Shown here one piece after another: positions 18,959 through 64,000 of a DNA stretch of 64,000 nt (position 1 is the first letter of the stretch; each line of letters begins with the position of its first letter). The position numbers and the translations under genes were made by a program. This DNA is from Malacoraja senta (taxonomy: Eukaryota), in contig CM075988.1 of assembly GCA_038087875.1 (NCBI GenBank), forward strand, positions 5,952,001 to 6,016,000. Reading direction: 5' to 3'. Below the pieces are notes generated by a model that was not told the origin of the DNA, did no database searches, and saw only the letters and a program-made list of their open reading frames with translations.

Positions 18959-19885
18959 TAAAGAGGACGGAAACCTCCAACCCACACGTTCGAATGAAAG
19001 AGAGCTTGTCATTGTTCATACAAGCAGCGTTCACGGGCAACGTAGCTGAACTGGGGACACAAGGAACTGCAGATGCTGCATCTTGGCTAAAACACAAAAG
19101 TGCTGGAGTAACAGCGGGTCAGGCAGCATCTGGGGAGGGAATGGACAGGCGACAATTCGGGTTGGCAACCTTCTTCAAACGTGGCTTCAGATAGATGAAC
19201 CGATGACACAAATGGAAATAGATAGGTACAATGTAATGCCCAGGACAGAGATATGGTTGCAAAATGATTAAGGTTGGGAATTAAATGTTCCAGGATGTTG
19301 AACTACGAGGTAGACAACATGGAAAATGAAGAGATCTATCCCTGCCAACAAGTGTGAGATCAAGGCGACAGAGAGAAAGGATCACAGCTTGGGAATCAAG
19401 AAGCAGAATCCGTTTGGGTAGAGCTAAGAAAGAACAAGTGACAAGGAACATTGGTTCATAAGTTGAAAGGTTATTAGTTTAGTTTAGTTCAGAGATACAG
19501 CGCGGAAACAGGCCCTTTGGCCCACCGAGTCCAGGCTGACCAGTGATCCCCACACATTAATACTATCCTACTAGGGACAATTTACAATTACACCAAGCCA
19601 ATTTGTCTTTGGAGTGTGGGAGGAAACTGCAGCACTTGAAGAAAACCTACACGGTCACAGGGAGAACGTACAAACTCCGTATGAGCAAGCAGCTGTAGTT
19701 GGGATCGAACCCGGGTCTCTGGCGCTGTAAGGTAGCAACTCTACCGCTGCGCACCATGCCACTGTTAAGTTATAGGAACACAATTAGGCCATTCAGCCCA
19801 TCAAGACTTCCCCATCATTTGATCATGGCTGAACTTTCTTTCCCTCTTCTCCTGCTTCCCCCATAACCACTGATACCCTTATTAA

Positions 19886-22790: not shown

Positions 22791-23751
22791 GTAAGCACAG
22801 GGCTGGTCCGCTGCCTGGTCCATCGGCCCTTTCAGCAGCACTAGTGATCACGGACTGACATCCATTTTACATGTAGATACATTGCGGACGTTGATTTACA
22901 AAATACGACACACACAGTGCTGGAGTAACTCAGCGGGTCAGGCAGCATCTGTGGAGGACGTGGATAGGTGACGTTTCAGGTCGGAACCCTGTTCATATTT
23001 TAAAATATTTCATAAAAAGGAGCTGCAGATGCTGTTTTATGCTAAAGGTTAACTCAAAATGCTGGAGTAACTCAGTGGGTAAGGCAGCATCCCTGGAGAA
23101 CATAGAGAGATGATGTTTTGAGTCGGGACCCTTCTTCAGACTGACCAGTGTGGAGAAGTGTCCCAACTTGAAATGCCATTCACACACCCATGTTCTACAG
23201 AGACACTGCCTGACCCGCTGAGGTGCTCCAGCACTTTGTGTATATTTTGTAGACTTTTGGATTTGCTTTTAATGGTCCTGGTGAAACTTAAGCCATTCTG
23301 ATTCTCCTGGTGCTGTCTGTGGGGAATTCTGCCTTTTTGACCCTGGTTTGATAAGCTGTCATCTGACAGTGGGAAGGGTGTGATGCTCCGAAGTCCAAGT
23401 TGTTCTCGTCCTTCCAAGTGACGGAGGTGGCATATCTGGGAGATGCTGTGAAAAAAACACTCAGTGAATGAACACAGCGGATTTTGTAGATAGCACACAC
23501 CAAAGCTTGTGAAAGAATTTTGATATGTTTCGTTGTTCATCCCTCGTACTCTGGAGAGAGGTGCAGAGGAGGTTGACCAGTATGATGCCTGGATTAGGGA
23601 GTATTAGCTACAGGGAGAGGTTGTACAGACGGATAGTTTTCCTCTGGAATGCCGGAGTTTGTGGGGAAATCTGAGAGAAGTGTGTAATATTATAGGGGGG
23701 AAGGAAAAAAAGCTGGACAAGGAGTGAGGAAGGACAAAGCTTGGCAGGTAA

Positions 23752-44336: not shown

Positions 44337-46495
44337 GATGCAGAAAAAGGATAGCTGATCTAACGGGAACAATGTAGAATTCTGAGGGGTTTTCGTTTAG
44401 TTTAGTTTAGAGATACAGCTCGGAAACAGGCCCTTCGGCCCACTGAGTCGCACCAACCAGCAATCCCTGCACATTAGCACCATCCCGCATACACTTAAAC
44501 CAAGGCAATTTACCTACATACCTGTTACACAAAAATGCTGGAGAAACTCAGCGGGTGCAGCAGCATCTATGGAGCGAAGGAAATAGGCAACGTTTTGTGT
44601 CGAAACCCTTCTTCAGACTGATGGGGAGTGGGAGAGGGTGGGGAGTCTTGTACGTCTTGAGTGTGGGAGGAAACCGAAGGTCTCGGAGAAAACCCACGCG
44701 GTCACGGGGAGAACGCACAAACTCCGTACAGACAGCACCAGTAGTCGGGATCGAACCCGGGTCTCCAGCGGTGCAAGCGGTGTAAGGCAGCAACTCTACA
44801 GCTGCGCCACCGTGCTGCCCGGGTCTTTGAAAATTCTGAGAGGGTGTTTTTTCTGGAAGGGATCAAAACTAGGAGGCATAACAACAAGTTTAAGGGTCAG
44901 ACCTACTAGACGAAGCAATGTATATAAAGGCGGAATCAACTAATTTAATATGATACTTGTATAATATCATCCTAAATATAGAAATACCATCATCCGATAG
45001 AATTAGAAGAGATTGGGAACAAGAACTAGCTATATAAATCTCGAAAGAGAGTTGGGATAAACACTTGCTATATGTGCACAAATGCTCGATCAATGTAAGA
45101 CATATTCTAATCCAATTTAAAATTTTACATAGACTATATTACTCAAAAACTAAAATAATTAAATTTTTTCCAAATGTCTCCCCCATCTGTGATAAATGTC
45201 TATTCCAAGAAGCAACCATAGCACATTCCTTTGTTTTTTGTATAAAAATCCAACATTTTTGGAATGAAATCTTTGAAATTTTTACAAAATTATTTTAAAT
45301 AAAACTGAAACCGAACGCAGAATTGATTATTTTTGGAACAATGGAAGCCAGCTTTGAGCTGACTTCGTTCCAAAAGAGCTTCCTTAATTACGGCTTAATA
45401 ATGGCAATAAAACGTATACTTAAATTCTGGAAAAACGCTCCCGCACCAACGATAAAAATGTGGATTTCAAATATGTCCGAAATGTTACACCTGGAAGACA
45501 TGAGATTCCTCCTAGCAGGCAAATCAGACCATTTCCAAAAGATTTGGTCTCCATTTATCGACTTATTACAAGCATAGTGTGCAACATAACTGAAAATAAA
45601 TGGTTTCAGGACCTGGTGAGGGGTGTGTAAAGATACGAAGTAGGTACATCCCTTTTATCTTATTTTACTTTCTTATATCTTCTGTTCTCTATTTTTCTCT
45701 TTCTTTTTCTTTGGTTTTCTTTTTAACTCATTCTCGTGTTTTACGTTTCTACGGGTTTCTCCTGATCACTCTTTCACGCACTTACTATACTATCTTATCT
45801 AACTCTCTCTATTTTTCTTCTTTTTAAAGTTTAAAACAAGAAGTGGTACAGGAAAATGTATTATGTTATTTTTGGCTTATATCACTGTAATGTACATTAC
45901 TTCTAATAAATAAAATATTAAAAAAAAAAAAAGATGCAGAAAAAGGATAGCTGATCTAACGGGAACAATGTAGAATTCTGAGGGGTTTTCGTTTAGTTTA
46001 GTTTAGAGATACAGCTCGGAAACAGGCCCTTCGGCCCACTGAGTCGCACCAACCAGCAATCCCTGCACATTAGCACCATCCCGCATACACTTAAACCAAG
46101 GCAATTTACCTACATACCTGTTACACAAAAATGCTGGAGAAACTCAGCGGGTGCAGCAGCATCTATGGAGCGAAGGAAATAGGCAACGTTTTGTGTCGAA
46201 ACCCTTCTTCAGACTGATGGGGAGTGGGAGAGGGTGGGGAGTCTTGTACGTCTTGAGTGTGGGAGGAAACCGAAGGTCTCGGAGAAAACCCACGCGGTCA
46301 CGGGGAGAACGCACAAACTCCGTACAGACAGCACCAGTAGTCGGGATCGAACCCGGGTCTCCAGCGGTGCAAGCGGTGTAAGGCAGCAACTCTACAGCTG
46401 CGCCACCGTGCTGCCCGGGTCTTTGAAAATTCTGAGAGGGTGTTTTTTCTGGAAGGGATCAAAACTAGGAGGCATAACAACAAGTTTAAGGGTCA
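43302..46495 (+). repeat. Near-identical 1,596-bp direct tandem duplication (L1 3' end, SINE and flank)
   Basis: Identical ORFs offset by 1596 (43469/45065, 43727/45323, 44638/46234); junction at 44898-44899. Confidence 0.95.
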
Positions 46496-48878: not shown

Positions 48879-50182
48879 CTTCCAAGTTGACAGATATATG
48901 TCTATTAACTGTTGAAATTGGCAAAATGTTGATGTCTGTGTTTACTTTGTAGTCATATCTCATGTTATTCTGACCTGGACGTTCGAGTTGCCGAACCAGG
49001 CCATTATGTGACCGGTCAAAGTGCGCAAACCCAACTAGTGATACAACCTGTGTCCCTGTAACAATATAAACATAATCCATTCAGGAGGATTCTGAGCAGT
49101 GTGAATGCCAGAGTTGATTTTGTGTTTACGTGTTCATAGACACAGACCCATTCTGTCCATTGTGTGACTATCTATGAAGTACCAATAAGCATGGGTAGAC
49201 TGTCGATAAAGTCTTATAGTGTATGGTACAGGTTTGCTGAGTGTCTGTCTAGATTTTACGAAGACATGGACCTACTTGGCTCTCCTTGCAGATTCACTAC
49301 AACGCAGGGCCATTATAGTCTGCACATTCAGAGTAACTTTGCAACAAACCATCTATAATCCTAGAGCCATACTGTGACACCTCTACATACTGCCTGTAGC
49401 ATGTTATGTACTATCTATTTATACAGCACCACTTGTAAATTCTGTACATGTTGACTGTCTTGTGCAGAATTTACAAGCGCAAATCCAAACTTTGACTCCC
49501 CACGTCTCAACATTCTCCAATTTTAACCCATCTGTGAATTTCCCCTTTATGTTTCCCCTGTATGTTTGAATTGCTATCAATTCAATTGACAATTCGCTCT
49601 ATGTCAAAGAAAATGGGCAAATTTGTCATTTTATTTTGGCACAATTAGCAGCCTGTGCTCATTAGGCCACGTATGCATCCATTTCCAGGTTAATTAGCAA
49701 CCACTGGGAAATGGGCGCAGGTGTGACTGTCGCGAGGGTGTCTCGTGTGTTGCTTGGCTGTGGTGTGCATCTAATCGCATTAACTAATTGGCAGCAGGCA
49801 TTTTGTTTTATCAACAGAAATTGTCTGTAAAAAGATGTGACCAACGACGTGCTTTTTGCCCTCAAAGTTAAATGATCAGTAACGGTGGGGGACTTGCAGG
49901 TGAAGTTGTTTCGCGAGAGACATGGCGATGAAATTTGTGAATTGTGTTCTGCACTGATTTCCTGTGGCTCTCTGAATTAAGTGCTAGCCAAACAGAGCTC
50001 AGAAAAAGCACAACAGAATAAACTCCAACTCCTTCTCTGGAGCCTCCGTGACCAGAAAAACTCCCTCTCTCCCTCTCCAATATTGCATGTATTTCCACAT
50101 AAAAGAAACTCACTCTTTGATCCCATATTGCAACCACCACCATTGCAGACTCGCCTAATAGTGCTTGATGTGAATTGCAATA

Positions 50183-51747
50183 CAGTGATGGAAATGGGGG
50201 GGGGGGGGGGGGGTACACAGGGGGACGGTGTTCCCCTCCTTTTCAGTTTCCAGTTTATATCCAATTTCTGTACTAGAAGGGAGTCAGAGACGCACGTTTA
50301 TTAGCTATCCTCATAGCTGCCAAGTAGTACGGATTTTCCGTATTTCGTACGGAAATGCAATACGAATATGGAAATACGAATTTGCGTTGTTAAACTACGG
50401 GTTAAAAAAAACCTACCATGGATAATCGTTACAATGAGTCACGCTGCACCGGCCATGAGACGAAAACGATTTGTTAACTGCCACTGTTAGCACTTGTTAA
50501 CAGCCAGTAGTTAACACGTAGTTATACAATGTATCATAAATACATCGATCCACATTCCTCAGTAAATGTAATTGTGTTTTGACCAAGTATTAATGACGCT
50601 GTGTTCCTTTGAATAAAATTCACGGGAGAATTTCTTAACTCACTGTCATTGAGGGCTCCGAACCGCGAGCACGGGCTTCTTCCTGGTGTGCAGGTCAAGT
50701 CATTCACCCACGTTATTTTTAAGAAGGAACAGCTCCCCATCTCGTCTGTCTATCGCTCTCTCACTCCCTCTCTCTCACCCTCTCGCCTCGGCATTCCCGG
50801 AAAAAATTGGCATTTTGCGGTGACGGCTGTATCTGCGGTTCCTTCCTGTTGAGGGGGAGCCCTGGCCCGTGGCGGCTCCTGGTCCATTCCCTCCGCGGGT
50901 GCCGCCTGGCCCGCTGAGTTCCTCCACCACTCTGTGTTTTTTGTTTGGCTCTGGAGTTGGAGGTGGACACGGGGGGCTGGGTTCGCTCAGCGGAAAGGGT
51001 GGCGGCTCTGGAGAGAGGGTCTTCTATCCAGAGTCACTGCCTGTCCCACTGAGTTACTCCAGCTTTATGTCTATCTTCAATTTCAGAGTTAAATTAAAAA
51101 CACAGAGTGCTGGAGGAACTCAGCGGGCTAGGCGGCATCTGTGGAGGGAATGGATTAGGAGTTGTTTCGGGCCAGGGTTCTTCTTCAATAGGAAGGAACT
51201 GCAGATCAAAGATACTAGAGCAGATACTAGTATCTTTGCTGCAGATCAGGCATGATATTTTTCCGATTTAAATCAGAATTTCGATTTTATTGTTATCCTA
51301 TTTGTCAATTTTTTGTGCCCGATTATTTGGCGGCCAATCAACCGGTCTCTAATGGGGTTGCGTCCAATCACCGACCAGCTTCCCTTAAAATTCCCGCCCA
51401 ATCAACAAATCGGTCTCCTCCCGTCCAATCAGCCGCTGTCTCCAAGGGCATTGTGTCTAATCACATAATGTGCTGGTCACTTGGCGGCCAATCAGACACA
51501 GTCTCCGAGGGGCGTTGTGTGACCAATATTTGTTATGCCTATCTTTATTTGACTGAGTTACTGATACAATGCGTATGTAATCATCGTACCCAGTGCATAA
51601 AGGCTCAAAATGGCCCTGAAATTTACCATATTACAAAAAAATTCTCACGGGGGGCTTATAACGTTTAACCCCACCCCCCTTCCTTCCCAACCTCAGCCTC
51701 ACGGATCTTAGCGTACCCCTAGTTCCTAAAACCCATTTCCATCACTG
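50183..51747. mobile_element. hAT-like non-autonomous DNA transposon (composite)
   Basis: Perfect 16-bp TIR cagtgatggaaatggg / cccatttccatcactg with CAG...CTG ends; 8-bp TSD not cleanly preserved. Confidence 0.65.
50831..51206 (+). repeat. Inverted repeat (~180-bp arms, 14-bp spacer) with A-to-G-biased left arm
   Basis: 50831-51012 aligns to the reverse complement of 51027-51206. Confidence 0.92.
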
Positions 51748-52357
51748 AATGCAGATCCCACTGGATGTCTGTAATTCTAGACCCCTGGGTGGAATCTGTT
51801 ACGGAGACCAGTTGTGTAACTCCTCCAGTGAACTCTCTGCGGATACATAACCTTTATGTACATCTTCCTTCAGAGTCTTTAATTGCAGAGCCAATTGGTA
51901 ACTCCCCGGCAGCATCTCCATAGTTACTGGATAGTTACAGCGGATGTGGAGAGTATACAGCCGCTCGACGACTGTTTACCGTTTCCAAATACAGTAAACC
52001 CTCGGTATAACAGCCCAAATGGCCAAATGGCCACAATAACCGAGTAAGGTTAATAAATATTTACTAGTTTAACCCAGGGCTGGGAGGGAAGAAACCGTGG
52101 TACAAGTGACAATAAACTAAACTTAACTCAAGTGCAGATCTGCCCTGCAACCCTCTCTGTTGTGCCAGGGGGGGGAGAGTGGGGTTAAATCAGTGGGTAT
52201 TGACAGGCGGAAGAGCCGGACACGCAGTGCGCTGGAGACGAGTCCGGTACCCACGCTCCCTCCGTTCCCGCGACTGGAAGCTCCCTCCGTCTAGCGCCAG
52301 CTTGTTGGGTAACCGACGGGAACCTTGCACCATTGTGTGCAGGGAAGGAACAGCAGA

Positions 52358-54611: not shown

Positions 54612-54811
54612 NNNNNNNNNNNNNNNNNNNNNNNNNNNNNNNNNNNNNNNNNNNNNNNNNNNNNNNNNNNNNNNNNNNNNNNNNNNNNNNNNNNNNNNNN
54701 NNNNNNNNNNNNNNNNNNNNNNNNNNNNNNNNNNNNNNNNNNNNNNNNNNNNNNNNNNNNNNNNNNNNNNNNNNNNNNNNNNNNNNNNNNNNNNNNNNNN
54801 NNNNNNNNNNN
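54612..54811. other. Assembly gap (200 N)
   Basis: Run of N. Confidence 1.
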
Positions 54812-63845: not shown

Positions 63846-64000
63846 TTAAGAAGGAACTGCAGATGCTGGAAAATCGAAGGTAGACAAAATTGCTGGAGAA
63901 ACTCAGCGGGTGCAGCAGCATCTATGGAGCGAAGGAAATAGGCAATGTTTCGGGCCGAAACGTTGCCTATTACCTTCGCTCCATAGATGCTGCTGCACCC
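63846..64000. mobile_element. Palindromic pair of Penelope-like terminal-repeat fragments
   Basis: Near-perfect inverted repeat centred on gtttcgggccgaaac; similar pairs at 570-705, 1425-1600, 1780-2010, 5820-6020, 21478-21670, 23020-23250. Confidence 0.7.

What the first reader, a model, noticed from the sequence alone, without database searches (positions are those of the whole stretch)
50831..51206. Genomic hairpin with one arm hypermutated A-to-G (ADAR-like fossil or strand-specific G-U hairpin)
Seen: aligning 50831-50970 with the reverse complement of the right arm (140 bp, no gaps), I count 24 A-to-G differences, no G-to-A, and only 4 other mismatches. About 24 of 37 A's are converted, e.g. 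gaagaagaac to gagggggagc and aacaactcctaatcc to ggcggctcctggtcc. The right arm matches the common Penelope-derived repeat elsewhere in the window, so A is ancestral. The arms share private variants, so one was copied locally from the other. A's following T or A are nearly all converted, while several after G are spared. Established: this matches ADAR 5'-neighbour preference; ordinary drift gives the opposite CpG-type bias. Inference: either a hyper-edited RNA was written back into DNA, or the locus was shaped so that only the + strand RNA folds (G-U wobbles) while the - strand RNA and DNA cruciform do not. That could make it a hairpin/endo-siRNA source against a very abundant repeat. Why only one arm changed is unexplained.
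Basis: partly seen in the sequence, partly recalled or inferred. Interest (0 to 1): 0.85.

Follow-up and report, generated by a model that had tools for sequence, protein, structure and literature searches.

The report
Transposon family carrying an A-to-G-edited hairpin arm
The one-sided A-to-G changes are real, but they were made once in the founder of an abundant cut-and-paste transposon family and look like RNA editing copied back into DNA.

Summary
In detail: 50831-50970 against the reverse complement of 51067-51206 gives 24 A>G, 0 G>A and 4 other mismatches. In this copy the arms really run 50831-51016 and 51021-51206, with 32 A>G.

It is not a local event. The hairpin lies inside a ~1.56 kb non-autonomous hAT-like DNA transposon (50183-51747), with terminal inverted repeats and 8-bp target duplications. 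The left arm alone has 1457 first-look candidates in the genome. All 29 other copies examined carry the same G-rich left arm and A-rich right arm.

An unedited version of the same module exists outside this family. Against it, the family's left arm differs at 45 of 243 columns, and 43 of these are A>G. That is 43 of 58 scorable A's in one 212-nt tract, with no C or G changed. The right arm differs at 4 of 183 columns. Conversion by 5' neighbour runs T 7/7, A 18/21, C 11/16, G 7/14.

Best reading: one ancient ADAR-type hyperediting burst on one arm of a long duplex RNA was written into the founder's DNA and then spread by DNA transposition. How it reached DNA, and why only one arm changed, remain unexplained. 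No RNA data were available.

The parts
50183..51747 (+). One copy (1565 bp) of a non-autonomous hAT-like DNA transposon family that contains the whole hairpin
   Evidence: Other copies start and end at these same positions. The terminal inverted repeat was found (I2). The 8-bp flanks match with at most 1 mismatch in 7 of 13 TIR pairs. This copy's own flanks do not match (6 of 8 mismatches).
50183..50198 (+). 5' terminal inverted repeat, followed by a G run
51732..51747 (+). 3' terminal inverted repeat
   Evidence: The 3' end is conserved in 24 loci listed.
50733..50818 (+). CT-rich stretch and leader that are homologous to the unedited module but lie outside the edited tract. The four A's of the leader are unchanged in the family majority.
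50819..51012 (+). A-to-G converted tract, i.e. the left arm. It begins 12 nt outside the inverted repeat as it now stands. In full-length copies it spans 212 nt; this copy has a central deletion.
51017..51020 (+). Core of the short spacer (one search gives 6 nt). This copy and L024 lack the 79-110 nt centre that most other copies keep.
51021..51206 (+). Unconverted right arm. The reverse complement of its family majority differs from the unedited module at 4 of 183 columns, with no T>C.
51220..51239 (+). Probable remnant of the outermost 14 nt of the right arm, displaced by a small palindromic insertion (51207-51219)
   Evidence: Alignment with the unedited palindrome L046; inference
51311..51520 (+). 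Tandem units of about 30-34 nt containing CCAAT. They are loosely homologous to the 33-nt tandem repeats of the unedited module.
   Evidence: D1

Best explanation
The hairpin is an internal module of a non-autonomous hAT-like DNA transposon family. Before the family amplified, its founder carried a long palindrome of roughly 270 nt per arm with a 36-nt spacer. Relatives that still exist in the genome carry the same module unedited.

In one burst, about three quarters of the adenines on the + strand of the left arm became guanines. Nothing else changed, and the right arm was untouched. The size, purity, strand specificity, neighbour bias and extent of the tract match promiscuous adenosine deamination by an ADAR enzyme on a long RNA duplex formed by this palindrome or an equivalent antisense partner.

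The edited sequence then became DNA. The most likely route is a cDNA of a + strand transcript covering the left arm, which recombined with the element (RT-mediated gene conversion). The edited founder afterwards spread by cut-and-paste transposition to at least hundreds of copies, of which the window holds one.

Shown: the family-level inheritance, the polarity, the spectrum, the context bias, the coincidence of the tract with the ancestral repeat, and the transposon class. Inferred: ADAR as the agent, and the RNA-to-DNA step. One proposed consequence is also inference. The conversion left the + strand RNA hairpin at full stability through G-U pairs but weakened the DNA palindrome and the - strand hairpin, which may have helped this variant to persist and spread.
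For: 1. Family trait. All 29 other loci carry both arms in the same layout. Arm against arm over these 29 copies gives 839 A>G, 15 G>A, 37 T>C and 60 C>T. Each G site in the arm-versus-arm table is held by 22-30 of 30 copies. At the 43 edit sites, left arms show 33-43 G while the 13 unedited S/P loci show 0-3 G, with no intermediates. A pattern search with R at the edit sites found 155 exact matches. Of the 100 listed, 20 are G-rich and 80 A-rich (73 with no G, 7 with one G), and there is no independent edit pattern.

2. Single burst. The unedited-module majority and the family left-arm majority differ at 45 of 243 columns: 43 A>G, 1 A>T, 1 T>G. That is 43 of 58 scorable A's in a 212-nt tract, with 0 of 55 C substituted, 0 of 44 G substituted and 1 of 49 T substituted (3 further columns are gaps). 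The right arm differs from the module at 4 of 183 columns. Changes after amplification are ordinary (C>T and G>A dominate, about 4% per copy).

3. ADAR-like context. Edited/unedited counts by 5' neighbour are T 7/0, A 18/3, C 11/5, G 7/7. T or A against C or G gives p=0.016, and G against non-G gives p=0.033. G depletion upstream is the known ADAR hyper-editing motif (PMC4365171, passages).

4. Duplex partner. The tract starts at the point where the inverted repeat of the unedited palindrome L046 starts, and it stops about 30 nt before the inner end of the repeat.

5. Polarity. Generic repeats in the window show A 183, G 15, T 25, C 9 at 23 covered edit sites.

6. Enzyme. The genome encodes the ADAR-type deaminase domain PF02137 (14 matches over the cut-off, on five contigs).

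7. Precedent. Proviruses with about 50% A>G in an inverted repeat have been reported (PMC12925331, passages).

8. Transposon class. TIRs and 8-bp target duplications.
Against: - ADAR normally edits both strands of a duplex, yet the right arm has no T>C at all. No step shown here explains this.
- The carrier is a DNA transposon. The unedited relatives also look like DNA elements: one has a TIR-like end, and no coding or reverse-transcriptase signal was found in 10 flanking ORFs. No RNA intermediate is therefore part of the known life cycle, and the reverse-transcription step is pure inference.
- 74% conversion exceeds the roughly 50% quoted for hyperedited viral repeats.
- The 3' neighbour shows no G enrichment (G 12/4, C 7/6, A 15/4, T 9/1).
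- The context tests rest on 58 sites and are only nominally significant.
- Copies were sampled as the best matches to this copy, so older or divergent subfamilies could have been missed.
Confidence: 0.65

Rival explanations
1. ADAR deaminated deoxyadenosines directly in the + strand DNA of the left arm while that DNA was paired with a complementary RNA (an R-loop or trans hybrid). No reverse transcription is then needed.
For: ADARs deaminate dA in DNA/RNA hybrids in vitro, with their usual sequence preferences (PMC5389660, abstract and section 13). This route removes the need for a reverse transcriptase in a DNA transposon, and a hybrid could cover one arm only. The context bias fits this route equally well.
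Against: In the 90-bp perfectly matched hybrid, full-length ADAR2 edited only 3 sites, which is far from 43 of 58. A review states it is unknown whether this happens in vivo (PMC12925331). A simple co-transcriptional R-loop would place the edited dA on the template strand of an antisense transcript, and nothing predicts that it would stop at the spacer (inference).
Confidence: 0.08
2. A DNA-level mutational process unrelated to ADAR produced the tract. Examples are error-prone repair synthesis through the palindrome (a polymerase-eta-like WA>WG signature) or another adenine deaminase.
For: A's after T or A are the most converted (25 of 28), as in a WA>WG signature (recalled, not from a call). 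Palindromes are break-prone, and hAT excision gaps are filled by repair synthesis (established knowledge). No RNA step is needed.
Against: 18 of 30 A's after C or G are also converted. A 74% conversion with only 2 other changes in 243 columns is far beyond any polymerase error rate I know of (recalled). No C changed, which argues against damage to single-stranded DNA (0 of 55). GC-biased conversion is excluded because T>C is 0 of 49.
Confidence: 0.1
3. The G's accumulated gradually under selection, or by hard-wiring of edited sites. This would keep a + strand G-U hairpin RNA (for example a small-RNA source) while disabling the DNA cruciform and the - strand hairpin.
For: The + strand RNA keeps full stability (-320 to -369 kcal/mol, against -331 for the unedited L046). 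The - strand RNA drops to -231 to -252, and the DNA hairpins to -145/-121 against -203.
Against: There are no intermediates: 33-43 G against 0-3 G at 43 sites, and the pattern matches are bimodal. Over the same period the right arm gained 4 changes and the left arm only 2 non-A>G changes. Forty-three separate fixations would therefore have had to occur almost without neutral change. The few partial copies have G and A in contiguous tracts, as gene conversion gives.
Confidence: 0.05
4. It is a local, recent event at this locus, or an assembly or sequencing artefact.
For: None beyond the single-locus alignment.
Against: 29 of 29 other copies share the pattern. There are 1457 first-look candidates for the G-rich arm. 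Contigs of four public runs carry the G-rich arm.
Confidence: 0.01

Closest known systems
[quoted passage not shown] 1994, as summarised in PMC12925331)
   Same: A dense, one-type A>G cluster in a region able to form long duplex RNA, fixed in DNA after passage through RNA. The conversion fraction is of the same order (about 50% there, 74% here).
   Different: Those elements replicate through RNA with their own reverse transcriptase. This carrier is a cut-and-paste DNA transposon with no known RNA stage. Here the event is ancient and inherited by a whole family, and it is strictly one-armed. I saw only the review's passages; the primary paper was not held.
Editing footprints in genomic retroelement copies (APOBEC G>A clusters in LTR elements and Alu; PMC2873906, PMC4866542)
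   Same: The logic is the same: a deaminase cluster seen by comparing a copy with its relatives, polarised by a family majority, then inherited.
   Different: Those papers document C-deamination of cDNA (G>A). PMC2873906 calls editing of retrotransposons followed by their re-integration into the genome 'expected to be rare' (passages). The A>G class is used there only as a control.
Hyper-edited inverted-repeat transcripts, such as inverted Alu pairs (PMC4365171)
   Same: A long inverted repeat as substrate, clustered A>G, and G depleted upstream.
   Different: Those are RNA-level events that are not written into the genome. Here the change is in the DNA of every copy.
Non-autonomous hAT transposons with internal palindromic rearrangements
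   Same: TIRs that begin with CAG, 8-bp target duplications, no coding capacity, and internal inverted duplications.
   Different: I know of no hAT family, and found none in five literature searches, whose internal palindrome carries a one-sided deaminase-type tract.

Membership tests
ADAR hyperediting footprint fixed in DNA | Dense cluster of a single change type (A>G) on one strand with almost no other change | tested here: met
   43 A>G among 45 differences in 243 columns; no C or G substituted
ADAR hyperediting footprint fixed in DNA | Polarity: A ancestral, G derived | tested here: met
   Unedited module copies have 0-3 G at the 43 sites. Generic repeats show A 183 against G 15 at 23 sites.
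ADAR hyperediting footprint fixed in DNA | A long complementary partner covering the edited tract | tested here: met
   The tract coincides with the left arm of the palindrome, out to the repeat's outer limit as seen in unedited L046
ADAR hyperediting footprint fixed in DNA | 5' neighbour preference U>A>C>G (G disfavoured) | tested here: met
   T 7/7, A 18/21, C 11/16, G 7/14; p=0.016 and 0.033. The sample is small.
ADAR hyperediting footprint fixed in DNA | 3' neighbour G enrichment | tested here: not met
   G 12/16, C 7/13, A 15/19, T 9/10. At this conversion level the test has little power.
ADAR hyperediting footprint fixed in DNA | Editing on both strands of the duplex | tested here: not met
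   The right arm has 0 T>C and only 4 differences in 183 columns
ADAR hyperediting footprint fixed in DNA | An RNA intermediate and a reverse-transcription step | not testable with these tools
   No RNA holder listed; the carrier is a DNA transposon
ADAR hyperediting footprint fixed in DNA | Host encodes an ADAR-type deaminase | tested here: met
   PF02137 matches over the cut-off on five contigs, two of which give identical scores
hAT superfamily, non-autonomous element | 8-bp target-site duplication | tested here: met
   7 of 13 TIR pairs have 8-bp flanks with at most 1 mismatch, 5 of them perfect. The window's own copy fails, with 6 mismatches.
hAT superfamily, non-autonomous element | Short terminal inverted repeats beginning with CAG (the YARNG motif, recalled) | tested here: met
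   19-nt arms at 95% complementarity; conserved ends in many copies
hAT superfamily, non-autonomous element | A related autonomous element with a hAT transposase | not tested
   No search was made for an autonomous partner
Penelope-like element derivative with hammerhead ribozyme | Hammerhead ribozyme motif recognised by a covariance model | tested here: not met
   No hammerhead hit at E<=1 in 50000-52000. No hit at gathering score in the whole window. No hit at E<=1 in four unedited loci. Only weak miRNA-like hairpin hits, all below threshold.
Hairpin / endo-siRNA source locus | Small RNAs mapping to the arms, and strand-specific transcription | not testable with these tools
   No RNA holder listed. 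The one run guessed to be RNA was judged probably DNA.

The most novel reading that the evidence does not exclude
A natural, heritable write-back of ADAR editing into a cut-and-paste DNA transposon. A transcript of a perfect roughly 270-bp palindrome was hyperedited, and only its 5' arm was copied back into germline DNA, either through cDNA-mediated conversion or through ADAR acting on an RNA:DNA hybrid. This turned an unstable palindrome into a strand-asymmetric G-U hairpin. That conversion is what allowed this variant to amplify to about a thousand copies or more, while unedited full palindromes stayed rare.
Probability: 0.25. Interest if true: 0.75.

Novelty: new variant of a known kind. 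Interest (0 to 1): 0.5.

Why it matters
Deaminase footprints in genomes are well documented for APOBEC acting on retroelement cDNA. Fixed ADAR footprints are known mainly from a few proviruses.

Here a clean ADAR-type tract (43 of 58 A's) sits in the founder sequence of a DNA transposon family, which has no RNA stage of its own. If the reading is right, edited RNA sequence (or ADAR activity on a hybrid) entered the germline DNA of a vertebrate-type genome and was then multiplied many times.

That would give a concrete natural case for testing RNA-to-DNA transfer of edits. It would also allow a test of whether editing can detoxify long palindromes in DNA.

For annotation, the practical point is that the locus itself is an ordinary old transposon copy.

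Tried and rejected
- Local-event reading: rejected.
- GC-biased gene conversion: rejected, since T>C is 0 of 49 while A>G is 43 of 58.
- Damage to single-stranded DNA: rejected, since 0 of 55 C's changed.
- Reverse polarity (G ancestral, G>A by an APOBEC-type enzyme): rejected by the outgroups.
- Recurrent editing of the module family: not seen. There are no independent A/G patterns among the 100 listed of 155 exact pattern matches. The few partial patterns (L047, L048) show contiguous A tracts, read here as gene conversion.
- An unedited member of the same hAT family: not found. The three T-preceded A-rich matches turned out to be non-hAT module copies. The one full unedited palindrome found (L046) lacks this family's flanks.
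- Rfam: no gathering-level hit in the window. Only sub-threshold miRNA-like hairpin hits turned up.
- Pfam on 10 ORFs flanking unedited module copies: 0 families, so the class of that module is unresolved.
- RNA evidence: no RNA holder listed. X16, guessed to be RNA, was judged probably DNA when laid. Nothing can be said about expression, present-day editing or small RNAs.
- Contigs of the four runs are short (mostly under 300 nt), and none spans the element.
- Earlier scan notes: nothing for this genome.
- Hajjar & Linial 1995 could not be read. I therefore do not know whether that provirus was edited on one arm or both.
- The window's own target-site duplication could not be recognised.

Full report
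**1. The observation**

An ungapped comparison of 50831-50970 with the reverse complement of 51067-51206 gives 24 A>G, 0 G>A, 2 A>T, 1 G>C and 1 T>C. The A-rich arm holds 37 A's. The repeat finder reports the same arms at 81% complementarity.

With gaps allowed, 50831-51016 pairs with 51021-51206: 184 positions, a 6-nt spacer, and 32 A>G against 1 G>A, 2 T>C, 1 C>T and 8 transversions.

Twenty-two other inverted repeats of 60 nt or more in the window show mixed changes with many transversions. The largest single class among them is 15 G>A next to 30 transversions. The skew is therefore not local background.

**2. It is a family trait, not a local event**

The window is G000:C12:5952001-6016000 of a 1.94-Gb assembly. 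The G-rich arm alone gave 1457 first-look candidates. Of 42 matches listed, 39 are other full-length places at 88-96% identity; the rest are this locus and two right arms at 81%.

All 29 other loci fetched carry both arms in the same order, plus about 300 nt further to the right and about 100 nt further to the left. Summed over these 29 copies, arm against arm gives 839 A>G, 15 G>A, 37 T>C and 60 C>T. Each G site in the arm-versus-arm table is G in 22-30 of 30 left arms, and A leads in the right arms at each (14-29 of 30).

Contigs of four public runs under four organism codes also hold the G-rich arm. Among the rows shown, 50960, a private G of this copy, is the only left-arm G that most contigs read as A. 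Two limits apply: 106 rows were not shown, and only contigs at least 85% similar to the G-rich arm could be laid.

**3. The carrier**

Copies begin and end at window positions 50183 and 51747. The ends are inverted repeats of 19 nt at 95% complementarity. In 7 of 13 TIR pairs the 8-bp flanks match with at most 1 mismatch, and 5 of them match perfectly. No coding capacity was seen.

This is the signature of a non-autonomous hAT-type DNA transposon. The YARNG terminal motif is recalled, not taken from a call. The window's own flanks do not match (6 of 8 mismatches).

Most copies keep 79-110 nt between the arms. The window's copy and L024 share a central deletion.

**4. An unedited relative gives the polarity and the extent**

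A pattern with R at the edit sites found 262 matches with up to 2 mismatches. Among the 100 listed, 32 were A-rich copies preceded by C rather than the G that precedes the family's right arm.

When fetched, these turned out to be a separate module family that I call S/P. It does not lie between this transposon's ends. It contains, unedited:
- a CT-rich microsatellite and a leader;
- the whole left-arm sequence;
- the 36-nt spacer;
- about 100 nt of the right arm.

One locus, L046, holds a full unedited palindrome followed by 33-nt tandem repeats and a TIR-like end. This is the same layout as the inner part of the transposon.

The majority of 12 S/P copies and the majority of 30 family left arms differ at 45 of 243 columns: 43 A>G, 1 A>T and 1 T>G. 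Inside a 212-nt tract, 43 of 58 scorable A's are converted. None of the 55 C's or 44 G's is substituted, and only 1 of 49 T's is (3 further columns are gaps). The four A's of the leader just upstream are unchanged.

The right-arm majority differs from S/P at 4 of 183 columns, with no T>C.

At the 43 sites, family left arms hold 33-43 G and the 13 S/P loci, L046 among them, hold 0-3 G, with nothing in between. A second pattern search found 155 exact matches. Of the 100 listed, 20 are G-rich and 80 A-rich, and no other A/G combination appears except a few contiguous partial tracts.

Generic repeats elsewhere in the window read A 183, G 15, T 25, C 9 at the 23 of 32 edit sites that they cover. 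A is therefore ancestral.

The change happened once, before amplification. After amplification the copies drifted about 4% from their majority, with an ordinary C>T/G>A spectrum.

**5. The tract fits a duplex**

The tract begins 12 nt outside the inverted repeat as it now stands in the transposon. That point is exactly where the repeat begins in unedited L046. A remnant of those outer 14 nt is still recognisable beyond a small insertion at 51220-51239. The tract stops about 30 nt before the inner end of the repeat.

The converted stretch is therefore one arm of the ancestral palindrome. It cuts across the two oppositely oriented sub-units of that arm and across the loop of the arm's own local hairpin. 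A local fold of the arm cannot have been the substrate. A full-length complementary strand must have been.

**6. The agent**

Conversion by 5' neighbour is T 7 of 7, A 18 of 21, C 11 of 16 and G 7 of 14. T or A against C or G gives p=0.016, and G against the rest gives p=0.033.

Depletion of G upstream is the known ADAR hyper-editing motif (PMC4365171, passages). The downstream G enrichment reported there is not seen here (G 12/16, T 9/10).

The genome encodes the ADAR-type deaminase domain (PF02137; 14 matches over the cut-off).

The alternatives fit worse:
- GC-biased conversion would also raise T>C, and it does not.
- Damage to single-stranded DNA would hit C, and it does not.
- A polymerase-eta-like WA>WG process would not convert 18 of 30 A's after C or G, nor three quarters of all A's (rates recalled).
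- Gradual selection for G-U pairs would need 43 fixations in the time in which the partner arm gained 4 changes. It leaves no intermediates.

**7. What remains unexplained**

Two things remain unexplained.

First, only one arm changed, although ADAR edits both strands of a duplex.

Second, the carrier is a DNA transposon, and the S/P relatives look like DNA elements too. They have a TIR-like end, and 10 flanking ORFs gave no Pfam family. An RNA-to-DNA step therefore has to be assumed.

My preferred route is inference only. A + strand transcript, or a fragment ending near the spacer, was hyperedited. A cDNA of its 5' part then converted the genomic left arm, using the unedited leader and the unedited inner 30 nt as flanking homology.

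Direct dA editing in an RNA:DNA hybrid is possible in principle (PMC5389660). However, ADAR2 edited only 3 sites in a 90-bp matched hybrid, and a review calls its occurrence in vivo unknown (PMC12925331).

**8. Consequence for folding**

The + strand RNA folds as well as the unedited palindrome: -319.5 kcal/mol for this copy and -334 to -369 for four full copies, against -331 for L046. The - strand RNA falls to -231 to -252 but still forms the hairpin (z -19.0). The DNA hairpins fall from about -203 to about -145 (+ strand) and about -121 (- strand).

Whether it helped this variant to spread is a hypothesis. In the samples, edited arm pairs outnumber unedited full palindromes (5 pairs against 1 among the listed matches), which is weak evidence.

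**9. Literature**

- Fixed A>G hypermutation is reported for avian retroviral variants, including an inverted-repeat region with about 50% of A's converted (PMC12925331, passages). The primary paper was not held.
- Surveys of editing footprints in genomic retroelements concern APOBEC G>A. [quoted passage not shown]
- Five full-text searches listed no paper describing an ADAR-type tract in a DNA transposon. The library lacks most subscription journals. I recall, but did not see, a 2015 review by Knisbacher and Levanon on DNA and RNA editing of retrotransposons.

**10. Verdict**

The local, single-locus framing is wrong.

The locus is one old copy of an abundant hAT-like element. The interesting object is the founder event: one clean, one-armed, ADAR-type burst fixed in a DNA transposon. 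I rate it a new variant of a known kind, of moderate interest. The mechanism of write-back is open, and no RNA data were available.

Noticed in passing
L046 (G000:C1:119468300-119472600), about 1965-2460: A full, unedited palindrome of the same module, outside this transposon family's flanks, with both strands folding equally (-331 kcal/mol). It is the only such pair among the 100 listed matches. It could be a sister or progenitor form of the inner part of the transposon.
   Followed up: partly
window 51017-51020; L024 (G000:C1:71475230-71478368): The window's copy and L024, which lies on another contig (91.7% identical over 1021 nt), share the same deletion of the 79-110 nt centre. The deleted form therefore seems to have transposed, or been duplicated, after the deletion.
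   Followed up: no
window 51311-51520: Tandem units of about 30-34 nt, each holding a CCAAT-containing motif (4 copies of a 14-nt core). They are loosely homologous to the 33-nt tandem repeats of the unedited module. Function unknown.
   Followed up: partly
window 51187-51253: A small secondary palindrome just outside the right arm that looks like a local inverted duplication. It displaces the last 14 nt of the ancestral right arm.
   Followed up: partly
window 50197-50214: A run of about 18 G directly after the 5' terminal inverted repeat of the transposon. Its length varies between copies.
   Followed up: no
window, e.g. 640-701, 1427-1599, 2566-2627, 19089-19146, 22910-22980, 44536-44587, 46132-46183, 63891-63956: At least 31 partial copies of a short, hairpin-prone interspersed repeat related to the arm sequence, often in inverted pairs. 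Rfam finds no hammerhead ribozyme in them, so the 'Penelope-derived' label is unverified.
   Followed up: partly
window 44460-44660 and 46060-46260: Two near-identical stretches about 1.6 kb apart, each containing the generic repeat with the same flanks. This looks like a local duplication.
   Followed up: no
window 54612-54811: An assembly gap of 200 N.
   Followed up: no
L047, L048 (G000:C1:143952800-143955900; C2:71868200-71871600): Family copies whose left arm has reverted to A in contiguous blocks (4 and 8 of 43 sites). This suggests gene conversion between the two arms or from unedited relatives.
   Followed up: partly
runs X1-X15: Runs under eight different organism codes (A-H) each hold 27-35% of the sampled words of the element, and none holds half. 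The family, or close relatives of it, appears to be shared by several labelled organisms, which would make it old. The codes were not resolved.
   Followed up: no
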